A stretch of DNA of 64,000 nt from Octopus sinensis. Its lineage: Eukaryota. How positions within the stretch are numbered: position 1 is the stretch's first letter; each line of letters begins with the position of its first letter. Positions 6,951 through 51,283 of the stretch are shown here, in pieces. Made by a program: the position numbers and the translations under genes. A model generated the notes under the pieces. It worked only from the letters and a program-made list of their open reading frames with translations. It was not told the origin of the DNA and ran no database searches. Location of the stretch: the NCBI RefSeq assembly GCF_006345805.1, contig NW_021834793.1, positions 6,348 through 70,347 of the forward strand. Reading direction: 5' to 3'.

Positions 6951-6953
<3 letters not shown>

Positions 6954-8455
6954 TTTGGCATAGTATGAATGATGGATTTGGGTTTTATTATTCACAATTT
7001 CTAGCCAGAGTACGGTGACTAGTACTGGTATTCTATGGTTGGGGTGTTTAGTGGGGTAGTCTATTGTGACCTTAATACTCTGGTGAATGGGGTTAGCTAT
7101 TTGCTGGATGCTCTCTATAGTATTAGTTTCTATTACTATATCAACATTACTCTCTTGTGGGGGTGCCTTTACCACTATGTTGATATCATCAACATAGCGG
7201 GAGTACATGTTTACGAGTATGGAGTTCTGTGCTAGGCGTTCTTTAAGCCTTCTGTCCCACCATACCATGAAAAGATTGGCCACATCACCAGCGATACTAA
7301 CGCCGATGGCTGCCCCCTCGTCCTGGGCATATATTTTATTATTAAACTTAAACGTGTGGCCTTTTAGGGTAACTCTTATACTAGCTCCTAGTGCATGTGC
7401 GATCATTTTCTTTATCTGATGGACATTTGCGGGGCTCCGTATGGCTCTGGTCCATCTGCGCCATCTTTCTATATGTGTCTTCCTAGCCATAGAAGTAATT
7501 GTGGGTGGTCTACCTCCTAAACATCTACTGGGGCAGAAACTACTAAGATTATATTTATCTAAGTATTCATTATTACATGTCAGTCTAAGTAGGAGGCCCA
7601 GTTCTTCTGTGTTGACATTACAGAATTCCACCTGGCTCTCATTGATCATCTCCATGCACTTCTCCACCGCAAAATCTACGTCGATCGATGGGTATAGGGA
7701 TACCACATCCATGCTACCCACCATACATCCTGTCAGGTCACAAGTGCTGTTACAGTCATCGATCCTGCTGAGGAGATCTTCTGTGCTGTCACAAACATTA
7801 GGTGACATCCGGATTATAGGGCGTATGATCATTGAGAGGAAGTAGAAGATTCTGTAATTGCTAGCGATATTCGCTCCACAGACTGGTCTTGTTGGTGGTC
7901 CTGCTATAGGGTCAGTAATTTCTTTATGGTCCTTGCAAAGTCCATTCAGTGCCGGGATATCATTGTTCCAGGCTTGGAAATTATTTGCTGTACGTTTCTG
8001 GGGTCCCAGAACAATTGTCCACATCATCATGTGGGCGTTGAGGACCTTTTCTCTCTCCTCATGTGCCTGTACAGTTGTTAATTTTGTATTGGCGATATGA
8101 GGTTGCATTGCCTGGATGTAGTTCGGTAAGCTGTCTATTGACATCCTGCCGGACTTATCTGTGGGAAGGCATACCACCTCTCCGTTCCTCGTGCGCCACA
8201 TGCAGGTTTAATCCCGAGTTGTTGGGCCTCTGTCTTATTCTGTCTCTGTCTCTTAGTGTATAATCCTAAAATCTGTCTAAGTTTGGTCCTAGCTATAGTG
8301 AACTGTGCTTCCATGTGGTCATTAGTATTTCTTGGGATGTAGACTCTTTTGTTGAAGGGTAATGTTGTTGGATAAATCCGGCTCATGCAGTAAGTTTTGT
8401 CACATACGTTGAAGAATTGAGTGTCAAAGGGGTGGGTATACATGTCAATGGTCAT
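6951..8455 (-). mobile_element. Penelope-like element reverse transcriptase fragment
   Basis: PTDKSGR, KDHK..TRPVC, DVVSLYPSID, FKFNNKIYAQ..G.AIG, ANLFM, RYVDD; frameshift near 8200; runs into (TA)n at 6951. Confidence 0.88.
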
Positions 8456-9458: not shown

Positions 9459-9463
9459 TATAT

Positions 9464-10112
9464 AATAACTAAGTCTCTCTAAAAGAGAACAGCGGCAGCG
9501 TTCCCGGAAAATAATAGTTATCGCCATACTAATATGGCATTCTTATAAAAATAAGAAAAAAGCTGTCCGCTTATTAGCTCCATGAGGCCATCGCCTTAAG
9601 TTAGCTATTTGATACACAAACTGTATCCATATAACCTTCGAACAAGGGAGGTCAGTCGCTCCACCATATTAGTATGGCGATAACTATTATTTTCCGGGAA
9701 CGCTGCCGCTGTTCTCTTTTAGAGAGACTTAGTTATTTTAATATTTCTATTATTGAAAACAAGTGGATGTATTCCACCGAAACTAGGTAAATAAAACCAT
9801 CGAACAGAGATTGTCGGAAGCGACACCTACTGGCTGACTACGCTGCATTGAAAAGGGGCAATACTCCGAAACGCGTCTGTAGCTGCCGGTCAAGTGGTGT
9901 GGAGCGACTGACCTCCCTTGTTCGAAGGTTATATGGATACGGTTTGTGTATCAAATAGCTAACTTAAGGCGATGGCCTCATGGAGCTAATAAGCGGACAG
10001 CTTTTTTCTTATTTTTATAAGAATACCATATTAGTATGGCGATAACTATTATTTTCCGGGAACGCTGCCGCTGTTCTCTTTTAGAGAGACTTAGTTATTT
10101 TAATATTTCTAT

Positions 10113-10115
<3 letters not shown>
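9464..10115 (+). mobile_element. Non-coding PLE pseudo-LTR/retrozyme-like cassette (inverted + partial tandem)
   Basis: 9464-9664 is the reverse complement of 9899-10099; 90-bp direct repeat 9664-9753 / 10026-10115 (period 362); (TA)n on both sides; contains a hammerhead. Confidence 0.85.
9842..9883 (+). ncRNA. Minimal type I hammerhead ribozyme, U3-A8 core variant
   Basis: gctgca TTGAAAA gggg-caata-ctcc GAAA cgcg TC tgtagc. Confidence 0.8.
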
Positions 10116-11880: not shown

Positions 11881-13100
11881 TCAGTGCCTGAAAGATACTG
11901 AAAAACCTATTGTGATCCTTTTATTATGAATTATCTTATTATATCTATTTTCCTCATCGAAATGCTTAAATAGAGATCTGTAAAAAAGCTTAACTAAATT
12001 CATTGTTATTTTTCTTGCATAAGGAATAATAAACCAAATATAATTATCATTTATAGAATTAACAGCATTATGTGTATCTGGACTGACATATGGGGTATAC
12101 TTTTTAGTCTTAAATTTAAGCCTATTTTCATACAGAATATTATAATTGCTACACTTATTCTTATTAATCTTATTACTATTATTAACCATATTATTTTTAT
12201 TATGAATATCATTATTTTCATAATATATGTTTAGCGTATCAACATTATTGGTATTTGTTCAAGAACTTGCATTTACACTATATTTCATTCCTCGCGTACA
12301 TAGGTTATCCTTAAATTCAGTAATGGCTAATTTATTAGTTACCTCATCGGCCTTATTAGCATTTTAATATTTTTATGAGATTTACTACTTTTAATCATCT
12401 TACACACATTTCCACTATTAGATCTACACATTCCATTGTCAACCAATTTACCATTATTATAATATTTATTATAGTTTTCATTTTTATTACAATATACAAT
12501 CTTATGCATGTATCCCGCATTTTTAAGGGCAACATTATAATATTCTGCATTATTGTTAAAAATTTCCTCATTAGAAGATAAAATATGAAACACCTAAAAT
12601 ATTGTTAACTAAAGTTTGTGTAATTGCTTTAGGATGATTACTATTAAAGTTAATATATTTCAAATTATTGTTAGGTTTATGGTATGGCCTATATTGTCCA
12701 GTAACAAGGTTCAGATTAACATGTAAGTAATTAACAGAATCATGTCCATTTTCAATAGAAATAGACAAACCAAATCTTTTAAAAACAGTATCGAATATTT
12801 TCATATACAAATCCAATTTCGTGTTTGAAAGACTATTAATGATAAACAGCATATCATCTTTCTAGAGTCCACCTGTAATATCTGGAAATTCATTAAAATG
12901 AAATAAGATGTATATACCTACTAGATCAGTAACCTGTGTAGAACCAGTCGATCCCACATCAAAAAAATCATTTGTAATTTCTCAAGCCCAGTACTTATTG
13001 GCAAATAAAATAATAGATTTTTGAGCTTTCAAAATTACTTTAATTTCTTTAAAACTAAGGTTAAAATTTTTCCTAGCAAATAAACAGGCGTTATTGAGCA
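11881..13100 (-). mobile_element. Degenerate Penelope-like RT/thumb fragment (second family)
   Basis: YRPYHKPNNNLKYINFNSNHP, LSSNEEIFNNNAEYYNVALKNAGY, IWFIIPY...KHF. Confidence 0.8.
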
Positions 13101-13423
13101 CCATAAAAAATATTTGTCTTGAGTGTAAATTGTATCACTATATTCATAGTTAAATTTAAATTATAAGTTTTAAGTACGCTATCTTCATTATATTAAATGA
13201 TTATATATATATTGAATTATTTAATAAATAATAATAATAATAAATGAATAATTTCGTATAATGCCATATCATGGATGATCAAAAACTTTTCTATTGTAAG
13301 TACATATTTCCAGCTATTTTTCTGTAGGTAATTGATTTATAAATATATATAAACTTTGATTTACAGAGATATTTTTTCCTCTGATAAACTAAGTTATTTA
13401 GTATTTTGTACTATGAATATTCA

Positions 13424-18935: not shown

Positions 18936-19025
18936 ATTGCTGAGGAAGTTGCCAAACTTCTCGAGTTGAAAGCGAAGCTTGGAGATGAATCTGGACCAAA
19001 GAAATTTGTCCTCAAGACTCCAAAG
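18936..19025 (+). CDS. HARS1: Histidyl-tRNA synthetase, first exon seen (WHEP C-terminal half + KTPK; equivalent to exon 2)
   Basis: Polypyrimidine tract + ttgcag|, translation IAEEVAKLLELKAKLGDESGPKKFVLKTPK, |gtaagg donor; 90 nt; resembles vertebrate HARS exon 2. Confidence 0.95.
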
Positions 19026-22571: not shown

Positions 22572-23635
22572 ATGAGGTTGTCAAGAATGTTCTTGGAGTT
22601 TTTAACCTTTAAATTCAGATGCACATAATTCGGCTCAAACGAAACTTTATTAATTGAATTAAACTTCATCAGAATCAACACACTCTTGCTAATGCAAAAC
22701 AAGTTTATTTATGCCAGTAGCGTAAAAATTCTGTGTTCAGGTTGCAATGAAATCGTTGAAGGTGTGTTTGGCATCATCTTGGTTTTTGAAGCATTTCTCA
22801 TGCAGGAAGTTGTCGAGATGCTTGAAAAAAGTGGTAGTTGTTCGACAAAAGGTCTGGTGAGTATGACAGATGAGGTAGAATTTCGTAGCTTAAATCGTTC
22901 AACTTCTGCAGGGTCAGTTTCGCGATGTGCAGCCAAGCATTGTCGTAGAGAAGAATCGGTCCTTTTCTATTGACCCATGCTGGCTGTTGTTGTCGGAGTT
23001 TCTTATGCATTTCATCCATTTGCTAACCATACTTCTCCGCCATAATGGTTTCGCCTGGATCCAAAAAGCTGTGACCACCAAACAGACCATGACCTTCTTT
23101 TGGTGCAACTTTGGCTTCAGGAAGTGCCGTGGATCTTTGTTGGCATTCAACCACTGAGCTGAGCATCACCGGTTGTCATAAAGAATCCTTTTTTCATCGC
23201 AAGTCACAATCCGGTCGAGAAATGGGTCATTCTTGTTGCATAAAAGAAGGGAAGACAACACTTCAAAACAGGGTTTTTTTTTTTGGTTGTCATTCAATTC
23301 ATGCAGTACCCATTTCTCAAGTATTTTTGTTTTTCCAATCTCTTTCAAGTGGTTGAAAATTGTTGTATATGTTACGTCTAATTCAGAAGCAAGCTCTCGA
23401 TCAGTTGTGTGTGGATTGGCTTTCACTAAGATTCTTAGTTGATTGTTGTCAACATCTGATGGCCGACCACTACGCTTATCTTCAAGACTTGTGTCACCAT
23501 TACGAAATTTCATTAGTGGTTCCTGGGCCAAACACATCATTGAAATCGCAAGCTGTTTCAGCAGCTTTTCGGCCTAGCTTCAGCTGCAATAAGAAAATTG
23601 TGCAAATTTGCTTTTTGTCCATGTTGTATTCAACA
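22572..23635 (-). mobile_element. Mariner transposase pseudogene
   Basis: RSGRP, WVLHEL (WVPHEL), IVTCDEK, LYDNA, YSPDL motifs over frameshifted ORFs. Confidence 0.9.
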
Positions 23636-25382
23636 TTCACTGTCACATCCTGGCGTCGCTACCTCGGTAAAGCTTATTACGGCTCAGTTTTTCTGGCCTA
23701 ATATGCGCCAGATGATCACCGATTGGGCATGCTCTTGTGTAAAATGCCAGTGTTCTAAAATCCACAGGCATATTCACGTTCCTCTTGGACAGTTTTTTCC
23801 TCCAGAGACTCACTTTTGCCATGTCCACACTGATCTGGTTGGACCATGGCCTGTCAGCCGTGGTTTCTCTTACATATTAACATGCGTCGATCATTTCTCT
23901 CGTTGGCCAGAGGCCATTCCAATAGTGGACATTTCCGCTGTGTCAGTTGCTCGAGCTTTCACTTCAAACTGGATTGCTTGCTTTGGAGTCCCTGCTAAAA
24001 TAACCACTGATTGTGGACGCCAGTTCAAGGCTTCCCTATTTTGTGAATTATCACGAATCCTAGGAGTTCATCCCATTTGTACGACCAGCTACCACCCAGC
24101 CTCCAACGGGATGGATGCTTTCACAGGAAACTGAAGGTTGCCCTACGTGTCACTTCTGATCCACAGTCTTGGACAGAATTCCTGCCTATCATTCTTCTTG
24201 GTTGTCGCACTGCTGTTAAAACAGACTTAGGTTTCTCCTCTGCTGAACTCCTCTATGGTACTATCCTGGCACTCTCTGGTACAATGTTAGTGCCAGACAA
24301 CTCATTGCCTCCTGATCCAACATCGTATGTCACTCAGACTTTGCTCATATTTCTTGAGTCTTCCACCCATGAATCCGTGTGACCAGTCTATTCCCTCTCG
24401 TGTCCCTCCGGATATTGACAAATGGACTCATGTTTTGTTCGGGATGATTCTGTCAGAGGACCTCTCATTTCTCCTTTTAAGGGACCATTTCATGCGGTAT
24501 CGCACACATACAAAACTTTTAGTCTCAACATCCATGGTCAGGCAGAGACCGTGTCGGTTGACAGACTTAAAAGGGCACATTTTGAGGTGTCCACACCCTT
24601 CAATGACATGCCAAAGACGCCCTCCTTTGATATTTTACAATCACCTACACATCCACCTGCACATGCACCTTTGACCATACCATCACCTACATCTTCACCT
24701 TCGTCGCCACTACTAACATGAATAAACCCTATGTCACCAGGACTGGCTGCACTGTGCATTGGCCCAAAAAACTCACTAAAACTATTTATATCTGACAATC
24801 TCTTTTGTGTTTCCTGCTTTCTTGTGTTACTGGACAGTTCCAATACTCTGCCAATGAACATTTTGCCAAATTTTGTGCATGCTAATTTATATTTCTTGCA
24901 GTTATTATTCTATTTGACTTATCACATTTTTGTACCATATCTTGTTGATTGCAATCAGTTACCATCTTTGCTCTTTCTTGTGCCTGCTCCAATTATTTTG
25001 TTTTTGTACTTCCGCACTCAGGGGGAGCCTTTGTAGCGGCACAAGTAGTCAGCAACATATTGGATGAGATCTTGCGACAGCCATTGCCATCTGGAGCGAG
25101 ACCTCACCTGCATCCATTTGCCATGTGTGAGATCACAAGGCTCGCGATGGAGAAAACTATATAAAGGGAAAACCTTCTTCAAATTTCTTTTCTTCGGCGC
25201 CACAACACACCAGCACTGGCTGAACAACACTACTGGCTGTGGTTTTCTGCCTGTCTATCTCCAGAGGCAATGCACCCACACTATCAGAGCTTAAGATGGT
25301 AGCTGAGAGTAGCACACTTCACCTTTCCTGTAAATAAACCAGTTGTAATTAGCAGTTGTAAATGCCGGAAGCCTGAACTACA
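23636..25382 (+). mobile_element. Ty3/Gypsy retrotransposon 3' part: integrase pseudogene, PPT, 3' LTR
   Basis: H..SHPG..C..CQ zinc motif, DLVGP, RWPEAIP, ITTD.GRQF, TTSYHPASNG, GPY/F-like GPF; purine tract at ~25020. Confidence 0.9.
25032..25382 (+). repeat. LTR (351 bp)
   Basis: TGTAG...CTACA termini right after agggggag; internal TATATAA (~25158) and AATAAA (~25333). Confidence 0.75.
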
Positions 25383-26725: not shown

Positions 26726-27045
26726 GTGAGGGCGCGTGGCTTAGTGGTTAGGGCATTCGACTCATGATCGTAAGGTTGTGAGTTCGATTCCCGGCGACGC
26801 GTTGTGTCCTTGAGCAAGACACTTTATTTCACGTTGCTCCAGTCCACTCAGCTGGCAAAAATGAGTTGTACTTGTATTTCAAAGGGTCAGCCTTGTCACT
26901 CTCTGTGTCACGCTGATTATCCCCGAGAACTATGTTAAGGGTACACGTGTCTGTGGAATGCTCAGCCATTTGCACGTTAATTTCACGAGCAAGCTGTTCC
27001 GTTGATCGTATCAGCTGGGACCCTCGTCGTCGTAACCGGCGGAGT

Positions 27046-27047
<2 letters not shown>
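26725..27047 (+). mobile_element. tRNA-derived SINE embedded in (TA)n
   Basis: A box tggcttagtgg, B box gagttcgattcc, central gtgtccttgagcaagacacttt domain. Confidence 0.85.
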
Positions 27048-27079
<32 letters not shown>

Positions 27080-27081
<2 letters not shown>

Positions 27082-28033
27082 TTAAGCAATTAAGGGTTTA
27101 GCAACGAATTGCCTCACCACACACCGAATTTAGAAATAGCAGTCAAAGAGTTATAGCTATTCTTTCTACTAAAAGGGAGATCTCAGTAAAAACACAGCAC
27201 TTGAAAGGCAAACACAGACAGGTAAGAGTGAATGAAATGACGGCAATCTATCATACAATTTTAAGTCACCTACGGACGTACGTTTCGAAATCAAGTTTTA
27301 GGAAAGCATGTGGTGAGGCAATTCGTTGCTAAACCCTTAATTGCTTAAGTATTACTTAAATTTTCCTCGAATGAGGCTTTTACATGCCGAAATCTACTTG
27401 GTGTAATTAATAATTATTCCAAATTAATTAATTTCACCCTTTATTGTTACTGATAACCATATTTTATCCCAGTAAATGACCACAGCATCTTGTCTTGGCT
27501 ACACGCGGGTGGAAGGGGGCTGGTGACACAAACTTTCATTCACACTTTGAATTTCGTGGTACTGGTAATGCTTTGGCTCGCTCTGACACTGAGTCGAGAT
27601 AATGCCTTCTAGTATCTCAAAATTTAATATACAATTATTCATAATTGGAGTATCCTACGCTGATGAGAAAAGAAGTTTGGGTAAGGTAGGATTTCCTAAT
27701 TCTTATGCTTTCCTAAAACTTGATTTCGAAACGTACGTCCATAGGCGACTTAAAATTGTATGATAGATTGCCGTCATTTCATTCACTCTTACCTGTCTGT
27801 GTTTGCCTTTCAAGTGCTGTGTTTTTACTGAGATCTCCCTTTTAGTAGAAAGAATAGCTATAACTCTTTGACTGCTATTTCTAAATTCGGTGTGTGGTGA
27901 GGCAATTCGTTGCTAAACCCTTAATTGCTTAAGTATTACTTAAATTTTCCTCGAATGAGGCTTTTACATGCCGAAATCTACTTGGTGTAATTAATAATTA
28001 TTCCAAATTAATTAATTTCACCCTTTATTGTTA

Positions 28034-28039
<6 letters not shown>
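27080..28039 (+). mobile_element. Non-coding PLE pseudo-LTR/retrozyme-like cassette (second family)
   Basis: 27080-27309 is the reverse complement of ~27705-27934; 147-bp direct repeat 27309-27455 / 27893-28039 (period 584); (TA)n flanks. Confidence 0.85.
27654..27745 (+). ncRNA. Type I hammerhead ribozyme
   Basis: cctacg CTGATGA gaaa...tttc GAAA cgtacg TC catagg; palindromic helix III. Confidence 0.85.
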
Positions 28040-28082
<43 letters not shown>

Positions 28083-28416: not shown

Positions 28417-28536
28417 GGCACTCGGGATTTTAGTCCTCAGCAGATGACTATCAGAGAAAATGTGTTTGCTACAATTATTGAGTGCTTCAAGCGTCATGGG
28501 GCTGAGACCATTGACACACCCGTCTTTGAATTAAAG
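28417..28536 (+). CDS. HARS1: HisRS exon (motif 1 region)
   Basis: ttgtag|[40 protein letters not shown]|gtgata; 120 nt, phase 0. Confidence 0.96.
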
Positions 28537-51136: not shown

Positions 51137-51283
51137 ACTGAGCATTCCTACAAAAAGTCTCCAAAATTGTTGGACCAATTTCAGTATTGTGAAAACAGTG
51201 GTATTCCTTTGGCCATTATTATTGGAGAATCTGAAATTGAGCAGGGTGTTGTCAAACTCCGTGTTATTTCTACCAGAGAAGAG
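51137..51283 (+). CDS. HARS1: HisRS exon (anticodon-binding domain)
   Basis: ttacag|TEHSYKKSPKLLDQFQYCENSGIPLAIIIGESEIEQGVVKLRVISTREE|gtaagc; 147 nt. Confidence 0.95.

What the first reader, a model, noticed from the sequence alone, without database searches (positions are those of the whole stretch)
27080..28039. Second, unrelated cassette with the same architecture (period 584); inverted arm preserves the intact helix I
Seen: a 230-bp inverted arm, a 147-bp direct repeat and a hammerhead at 27654-27745. The sense copy reads catagg (mismatch to cctacg), whereas the inverted arm encodes cgtagg, the perfect partner. Two families with one geometry imply a shared mechanism. Inference: the intronic sense ribozyme, about 670 nt upstream of a HisRS exon, acquired a weakening change after insertion (it is also a CpG-type transition, so it may be neutral), and the inverted arm can sequester its 3' half.
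Basis: partly seen in the sequence, partly recalled or inferred. Interest (0 to 1): 0.7.

Follow-up and report, generated by a model that had tools for sequence, protein, structure and literature searches.

The report
Head-to-head retrozyme in HisRS intron
This is one copy of a common, protein-free jumping repeat that carries a predicted self-cutting RNA motif and sits back-to-back in an intron of the histidyl-tRNA synthetase gene; its mirror arm is likely a by-product of how Penelope-type enzymes paste it, and its one weakening mutation is likely ordinary decay rather than protection of the gene.

Summary
In detail: a 232-nt inverted arm, a 147-nt direct repeat at period 584, a type I hammerhead motif, and A at 27741 where the arm and the family have G (183 G against 2 A genome-wide). 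The cassette lies in a spliced HisRS intron, in sense.

It is one copy of a young dispersed non-coding family (non-LTR retrozyme) with Penelope-like insertion marks: TA microsatellite targets, variable 5' ends, two fixed 3' ends, and head-to-head pairs in 36 of 89 loci. In 24 of 26 classifiable pairs one arm ends at each fixed site, and paired arms share alleles (805 of 815 sites). This points to two primings from one template.

The selection story is not supported. The two arms differ at the family's average rate (0.93% against 0.92%). Sixteen of 115 copies carry a similar ribozyme-damaging change. Masking by the arm is no commoner than in shuffled pairs. In folding, the arm abolishes the ribozyme with A or G. 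One result cuts the other way: five of this copy's six private changes cluster in the ribozyme, which is unexplained.

The autonomous partner was not found. This scan has already noted the same kind of element on other DNA of this genome.

The parts
27049..27079 (.). (TA)n target microsatellite, left flank
   Evidence: sequence; 116 of 138 family 3' ends have TA-rich flanks
27080..27309 (-). Inverted arm: 5'-truncated copy covering unit positions 396-584 and 1-43; its 3' end lies at the short fixed site (unit 43). Holds only the 3' half of the hammerhead, with family G at the site matching 27741
27310..28039 (+). Forward arm: 1.25 units of the 584-nt repeat; its 3' end lies at the long fixed site (unit 146)
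27309..27455 (+). First copy of the 147-nt direct repeat (pseudo-LTR-like terminal redundancy)
27893..28039 (+). Second copy of the 147-nt direct repeat; 27937-28039 is the ~100-nt 'tail' between the two fixed 3' end sites
27648..27751 (+). Type I hammerhead motif with extended helix I, long helix II and 2-bp palindromic helix III; predicted cleavage after C27739
   Evidence: sequence; folding; alignment and pair count; activity not tested
27741..27741 (+). Private G-to-A change at a CpG; gives a C-A mismatch at the second pair of helix I
27785..27785 (+). Variant shared by both arms (partner position 27229); the 23-nt word holding it occurs nowhere else in the assembly
28040..28080 (.). (TA)n target microsatellite, right flank
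   Evidence: sequence
18936..19025 (+). HisRS exon upstream of the host intron (end of the WHEP domain)
   Evidence: (PF00458, E 0.002, below cut-off)
28417..28536 (+). HisRS exon downstream of the host intron
   Evidence: PF13393, E 0.0014, below cut-off; GT-AG joints in 4 of 4 RNA-type runs

Best explanation
The cassette is one insertion of a young, dispersed, non-coding 584-nt repeat that carries a predicted hammerhead ribozyme and was likely pasted into a TA microsatellite by a Penelope-like retrotransposon enzyme, which likely primed copying from both ends of the DNA cut on one uncut template, so the inverted arm is likely a by-product and the G-to-A change likely neutral decay. Shown here: family size, TA targets, two fixed 3' ends, one of each in head-to-head pairs, shared alleles between arms, average mutation load. 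Inferred: the enzyme cuts both strands of (TA)n; one DNA end starts reverse transcription at unit 43 and the other at unit 146; each cDNA stops at a variable point; the two are joined 5' to 5'. The forward arm runs through the cleavage site for 730 nt, so its template was a circle or an uncut multimer, not the cleaved linear monomer. In HisRS pre-mRNA the antisense arm is made first and is predicted to capture 27705-27936 as a 232-bp duplex, so the ribozyme would not fold whichever base is at 27741.
For: Family: 147 matches at 40 scored of 2995 candidate places; 185 exact 3'-core words. Census of 89 loci: 36 head-to-head, 48 single-orientation, 5 complex; 118 of 138 3' ends fall in two windows (72 at unit 30-63; 46 at 130-156, 4 of these from a related repeat); 5' ends are scattered; TA-rich flanks at 116 of 138 3' ends and 27 of 138 5' ends. 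Long+short ends in 24 of 26 classifiable pairs (10 of 36 had an end elsewhere), against 50% expected, p 4.6e-6. The unrelated 362-nt family shows the same in 15 of 18 head-to-head loci (its query ended at one of the two sites). Opposite arms agree at 805 of 815 polymorphic sites against about 579 expected. The word with 27785A occurs only in this cassette's two arms. Arm-to-arm differences: 83 in 9019 positions family-wide, 2 in 216 here. 16 of 115 ribozyme-spanning copies have a core or helix-breaking change, and 52 of 115 carry U4C. Masking in 29 of 41 cases against 74% after re-pairing. Helix pair probabilities are 0.0 with the arm, for A and for G. Intact 781-aa RT plus GIY-YIG frames that end at (TA)n exist in the genome. 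Literature: partial tandems, inverted 5'-truncated copy and a tail at one end only (PMC8557442); two internal RT start sites, both strands cut and extended, predicted dimer (PMC11167929).
Against: No autonomous element with nucleotide similarity to the unit was found in 50 GIY-YIG loci. Five of the forward arm's six private changes lie within 99 of its 730 nt, all in the ribozyme; a hand estimate for uniform placement is about 2e-4 before correcting for choosing the interval afterwards, and no donor copy exists in the assembly. Both arm-to-arm differences fall in the sense ribozyme. Arm differences are slightly denser in the ribozyme family-wide (1.26% against 0.85%, p 0.15). The damage rate of 16 in 115 is biased low, because many loci were picked by an intact 3'-core word. 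Equilibrium folding cannot exclude fast local folding and cleavage before the arm pairs. Xenopus retrozymes are depleted in introns (Li et al. preprint), so selection on genic copies is plausible in general. The circle was not observed.
Confidence: 0.8

Rival explanations
1. The insertion mechanism is as above, but this sense-intronic copy persisted because its ribozyme was silenced: selection on HisRS pre-mRNA favoured the masked arrangement and then the 27741 change.
For: G is ancestral. The change lowers helix I pairing from 0.94-1.0 to 0.0-0.64 without the arm. Private changes cluster in the ribozyme. The host gene is essential by established knowledge, and retrozymes are depleted in Xenopus introns.
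Against: With the arm present the base makes no predicted difference. Of five changes in the ribozyme only 27741 breaks a predicted pair: 27648 adds a G-U, 27690 keeps a pair as G-U, 27695 and 27746 sit in loops. Masking frequency equals the shuffled value. The same G-to-A arose separately in L031, which lacks the other private alleles. The window's other cassette has an arm that misses its ribozyme.
Confidence: 0.1
2. The clustered changes in the forward arm, 27741 included, arose in one error-prone patch at or before insertion (reverse transcription errors, an edited or variant template, a template switch) or are assembly errors, rather than slow decay afterwards.
For: Six private changes fall in 27595-27746, and no change private to one arm lies in the other 800 nt of the cassette. 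Four of six are A>G or T>C. None of 8 runs shows this copy's allele at 27695 where covered.
Against: Four of the six lie outside the arm overlap and may simply be source alleles like 27785A. Six changes in 584 nt rank 82nd of 100 copies, not an outlier. 27741 is a CpG transition that recurs in L031.
Confidence: 0.25
3. The unit is a satellite or fold-back DNA element spread by recombination or DNA-level transposition, with no RNA step.
For: Tandem arrays of up to four units and inverted ends occur. No partner enzyme was matched.
Against: Fixed 3' ends with scattered 5' ends, dispersal over many chromosomes, TA targets and a conserved ribozyme core are marks of target-primed reverse transcription; 48 of 89 loci have no inverted arm.
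Confidence: 0.04

Closest known systems
Metazoan non-LTR retrozymes (Cervera and de la Pena 2020, PMC7229834: passages and the mussel section read; Li, Clavereau and Pollet 2026, bioRxiv 10.64898/2026.07.22.740005: parts 1-3 of 5 read, supplements closed)
   Same: Non-coding, low-GC repeat in monomers to short tandems, with one type I hammerhead per unit; PLEs occur in the same genome; a 2-bp helix III as described for invertebrate motifs.
   Different: The unit is 584 nt, against 170-400 nt in the 2020 paper but within the 51-972 bp range of the preprint. Helix II spans 61 nt. Head-to-head insertion and two fixed 3' ends are not described in the parts read ('inverted' occurs 0 times in PMC7229834). 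Cleavage and circles were not tested here.
Insertion architecture of endonuclease-bearing Penelope-like elements (Craig et al. 2021, PMC8557442: 12 passages read)
   Same: 5' truncation, partial tandems forming pseudo-LTRs, an adjacent inverted 5'-truncated copy, a tail at one end only, (TA)n targets, hammerhead in the repeat.
   Different: No reading frame; the tail is about 100 nt instead of 30-40; the partner clade is unidentified.
Poseidon element PAc of the green anole (Frangieh et al. 2024, PMC11167929: parts 1-2 of 4 read, covering the main text)
   Same: Two internal reverse-transcription start sites define the tail; AT-rich target; both strands cut and extended; uncut RNA is the template and ribozyme mutants still insert in vitro.
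   Different: PAc is autonomous.

Membership tests
Type I hammerhead ribozyme | Core C3-U4-G5-A6-N7-G8-A9, GAAA and NUH cleavage triplet | tested here: met
   CUGAUGA 27660-27666, GAAA 27728-27731, GUC 27737-27739; conserved across copies except U4C in 52 of 115
Type I hammerhead ribozyme | Three helices, helix I open-ended | tested here: met
   94.6% of 815 cells paired in 23 distinct copies; this copy has one mismatch in helix I; helix III has near-zero probability in the monomer fold
Type I hammerhead ribozyme | Covariation or match to a curated model | tested here: inconclusive
   One two-sided change, 118 of 500 shuffles as high; no Rfam hammerhead match
Type I hammerhead ribozyme | Self-cleavage | not testable with these tools
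   needs a transcription assay
Non-LTR retrozyme | Non-coding unit in tandem repeats with a type I hammerhead in each unit | tested here: met
   584-nt period; up to 4 complete ribozymes in one arm (L018); this insertion holds only one complete ribozyme, so it is not an 'active' copy by the preprint's two-motif criterion
Non-LTR retrozyme | Dispersed, recently amplified copies | tested here: met
   185 exact core words; median private divergence 0.5% over 100 copies
Non-LTR retrozyme | Expressed as linear and circular unit-length RNA | tested here: inconclusive
   family sequence is present in 4 of 4 RNA-type contig sets; contigs cannot show ends, strand or circles
Non-autonomous Penelope-like element | 5' truncation, partial tandem, adjacent inverted copy, tail at one end, microsatellite target | tested here: met
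Non-autonomous Penelope-like element | Sequence shared with the pseudo-LTR of an autonomous PLE | tested here: inconclusive
   no match in 50 loci drawn from 147 GIY-YIG hits, which were 150 scored of 5029 candidates
Autonomous Penelope-like element | RT and GIY-YIG reading frame | tested here: not met
   the whole cassette is 960 nt between TA runs; no frame of 170 aa with RT or GIY-YIG motifs within the unit copies

The most novel reading that the evidence does not exclude
Head-to-head retrozyme insertions record a dimeric Penelope-type enzyme that primes both ends of one double-strand cut on a single RNA circle, one subunit at each of two fixed start sites about 100 nt apart. Every such insertion then puts an antisense arm ahead of a sense arm in either direction of host transcription, so most copies silence their own ribozyme at birth and seed introns with long perfect dsRNA.
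Probability: 0.45. Interest if true: 0.55.

Novelty: new member of a known kind. Interest (0 to 1): 0.25.

Why it matters
The locus itself is ordinary. The family is a usable natural record of how Penelope-like enzymes integrate, a step that PMC8557442 and PMC11167929 both leave open: the one-site-per-arm rule (24 of 26) and the shared alleles between arms make a two-ended priming model testable in vitro. It also offers a reason why sense-intronic hammerheads can be tolerated without selection: the insertion geometry masks most of them. The 232-bp duplex 480 nt upstream of a 3' splice site could be an RNA-editing substrate (inference, untested).

Tried and rejected
Rfam at gathering score and at E up to 10: no hammerhead match. 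Search for an empty allele or second haplotype of the flank in the assembly: only the window itself matched in full. Search for a donor or sister of this copy's private alleles: none; L031 shares only 27741A. Autonomous partner: no nucleotide match in 50 GIY-YIG loci, only nearby non-autonomous relatives. HisRS first exon: not located in the contig by motif scan or by Pfam WHEP search, so whether the 362-nt cassette is intronic is open. Sequencing runs: no holder on record as RNA; the runs laid were contigs and could not confirm this copy's bases or show an empty site. I first read 27690G with 27695C as a compensatory pair; in the minimum-energy fold one is a G-U pair and the other a loop base, so it holds only for a small alternative hairpin. 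I considered that the ribozyme must act as a dimer: the palindromic helix III allows it (PMC3088659, passages), but invertebrate motifs with a 2-bp helix III cleave as monomers (PMC7229834), so it is not claimed. That 99 of 102 arms run past the cleavage site is partly built in, because loci were chosen by a word that spans it. A search for kinetic data on helix I mismatches found no paper; my recollection that only the innermost helix I mismatch slows the chemical step is from memory. Orientation bias was not testable without annotation. Literature searches for twin priming in PLEs and for cephalopod hammerheads listed no paper describing this family or the one-site-per-arm rule; subscription papers and the preprint's supplements were not seen.

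Full report
Observation. The region 27080-28039 lies between two (TA)n runs. It holds a 232-nt inverted repeat, 27078-27309 with 27705-27936, and a 147-nt perfect direct repeat at period 584. A type I hammerhead motif can be read at 27648-27751: helix I 27654-27659 with 27740-27745, core CUGAUGA, a 61-nt helix II domain, GAAA, a 2-bp helix III with a palindromic loop, and cleavage predicted after C27739. Rfam does not match it; the long helix II is the likely reason (inference). The sense copy has A at 27741 and C at 27746; the arm has the family bases at both. The host gene is HisRS on the + strand: the anticodon-binding exon at 51137 passes the Pfam cut-off, and the two exons flanking the cassette give sub-threshold WHEP and tRNA-synt_His matches. 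RNA-type contigs join the exon ending at 19025 to the exon at 28417 in 2 of 4 runs and show the downstream GT-AG joints in 4 of 4. The cassette is therefore intronic and in sense, 672 nt from the next exon. The genome is an animal genome of 2.72 Gb; earlier notes of the scan call it octopus-like, which I did not test.

The family. A search with the 584-nt unit gave 147 matches at 40 scored of 2995 candidate places, 92-98% identical for full units. Exact 24-letter words across the ribozyme's 3' core occur 183 times with G and twice with A. I examined 89 distinct loci: the 30, L031 and L032, and 60 regions fetched, less three duplicates. Of these, 36 are head-to-head, 48 single-orientation and 5 complex. 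Of 138 arms, 72 end at unit 30-63 (mode 43) and 46 at 130-156 (modes 146 and 153; four belong to a related repeat in L066). The 5' ends are scattered. TA-rich flanks follow 116 of 138 3' ends and 27 of 138 5' ends. This matches the published pattern of Penelope-like elements: partial tandems, an inverted 5'-truncated copy, a tail at one end only, microsatellite targets (PMC8557442, passages). The two end classes fit the two internal start sites of reverse transcription shown for the anole element PAc (PMC11167929, parts 1-2 of 4). A non-coding tandem unit with a type I hammerhead is a non-LTR retrozyme (PMC7229834, passages and one section), and a 2026 preprint derives these from PLE pseudo-LTRs (parts 1-3 of 5; supplements closed).

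How the inverted arm arises. Of 36 head-to-head loci, 26 have both ends in the two classes; 24 have one of each, 2 have two short ends and none two long (expected 50%, p 4.6e-6). This cassette follows the rule: arm at 43, forward copy at 146. The unrelated 362-nt family shows it in 15 of 18 head-to-head loci among 28 examined, with the caution that the query ended at one of its two sites. Opposite arms agree at 805 of 815 polymorphic sites, against about 579 for random pairs. The word holding 27785A occurs only in the two arms of this cassette. Fifteen alleles private to one examined locus are carried by every copy in that insertion; 15 are in some copies (9 of them in the related repeat of L066) and 107 in one copy only. 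The arms thus come from one source. The forward arm runs 730 nt through the cleavage site, so its template was a circle or an uncut multimer. The most likely mechanism is two primings, one from each end of a double-strand cut, by a PLE enzyme; PAc cuts and extends both strands and is predicted to be a dimer. These steps are inferred. Intact RT plus GIY-YIG elements ending at (TA)n exist in the genome, but none of 50 loci examined shares sequence with the unit. The partner is unidentified.

The mutation. G is ancestral: 141 G and 1 A among other sampled copies. The other A copy, L031, lacks this copy's remaining private alleles, so the change recurred, as expected at a CpG. It is predicted to cost 5.8 kcal/mol and to drop helix I pairing from 0.94-1.0 to 0.0-0.64. 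It is not unusual in number: arms differ at 83 of 9019 overlapped positions family-wide (0.92%) and at 2 of 216 here (0.93%). Sixteen of 115 ribozyme-spanning copies carry a core or helix-breaking change, a figure biased low by how loci were chosen, and 52 of 115 carry U4C.

A result against my reading. Five of the six changes private to the forward arm lie in 99 nt of the ribozyme, and both arm-to-arm differences fall in its sense 3' strand. No donor for them exists in the assembly. Only 27741 breaks a predicted pair; the others add or keep a G-U pair or sit in loops. Four lie outside the arm overlap and could be source alleles. The cluster fits a patch of errors or a variant template better than selection for inactivation, but it is unexplained, and no independent reads confirm the bases.

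Sequestration. In equilibrium folding, the upstream arm reduces all ribozyme helices to probability 0.0 in the whole cassette at 37 and 20 degrees, and helix I to at most 0.03 in nascent RNA ending at 27750, with A or with G. The masking is real as a prediction, and it removes the phenotype on which selection at 27741 would act, unless local folding and cleavage outrun the arm. It is not enriched: among 33 of the 36 head-to-head loci (L017, L029 and L059 left out as split, cut or mixed), 29 of 41 arm-direction cases with a complete ribozyme are masked, against 74% after random re-pairing. A head-to-head insertion puts an antisense arm first in either direction of transcription, so orientation bias is undefined for such copies. 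In the window's 362-nt cassette the arm misses the ribozyme. Orientation bias in single-orientation copies could not be tested without annotation. The Xenopus depletion in introns keeps weak selection plausible in general.

Novelty. This is a new member of a known kind. The 584-nt unit had no look-alike in the scan's notes, but the same kind of element, with two fixed ends and head-to-head arms, was noted before on other DNA of this genome; those notes are unchecked, agree with results I had already computed, and corrected my reading of the 362-nt family's core. Searches listed no paper on this family or on the one-site-per-arm rule; subscription papers were not searched. The family-level integration signature is the part worth keeping. 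The locus-level story of a ribozyme silenced to protect HisRS is not supported. Interest 0.25.

Noticed in passing
window 9463-10115: The other cassette: a 362-nt unit of an unrelated young family (copies 98-99% alike), head-to-head in (TA)n. The inverted arm covers unit positions from 146 upward and misses the ribozyme. Private G-to-A at 9837 lies outside the proximal helix I. Family ends are at unit 299 and 362; this copy's arm ends near 345-359.
   Followed up: partly
window 27595-27746: Six private changes of the forward arm cluster in 152 nt, five in the ribozyme; four are A>G or T>C; no donor in the assembly. Unexplained.
   Followed up: partly
family, unit position 352 (window 27661): 52 of 115 copies carry the U4C core variant, a whole young subfamily. 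PMC3088659 reports U4C lowers activity in vitro yet supports viroid infectivity.
   Followed up: partly
L161-L175 (e.g. G000:C1:207473500-207480500): A young autonomous PLE family with a 479-aa first frame and a 781-aa RT plus GIY-YIG frame, a C-x4-C-x2-C linker (fits the Neptune-type motif of PMC8557442), ending at (TA)n, some copies with inverted 5' pieces.
   Followed up: partly
L066:660-2400; L034, L059, L153, L172: Related repeats share only the tail region (unit 47-167) with this family; L066 holds a tandem of period about 551. The tail may hold the enzyme's recognition signal.
   Followed up: no
window 26727-27048: A very high-copy tRNA-headed SINE-like repeat lies directly upstream, in the same TA tract (summed contig depth of millions).
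   Followed up: no
window 12489-13104 (-) and 6951-7433 (-): Fragments of two other RT-bearing elements, similar to PLE-like frames in L078 and L056.
   Followed up: no
window 23439-24324 (+): Broken integrase-like frames of an LTR retrotransposon type inside the same HisRS intron (seen; label from recall).
   Followed up: no
window 18936-51283 (+): HisRS exons found at 18936, 28417, 29777, 30324, 30832, 37003, 43373, about 45930, 47494 and 51137; the first exon was not found in the 70-kb contig.
   Followed up: partly
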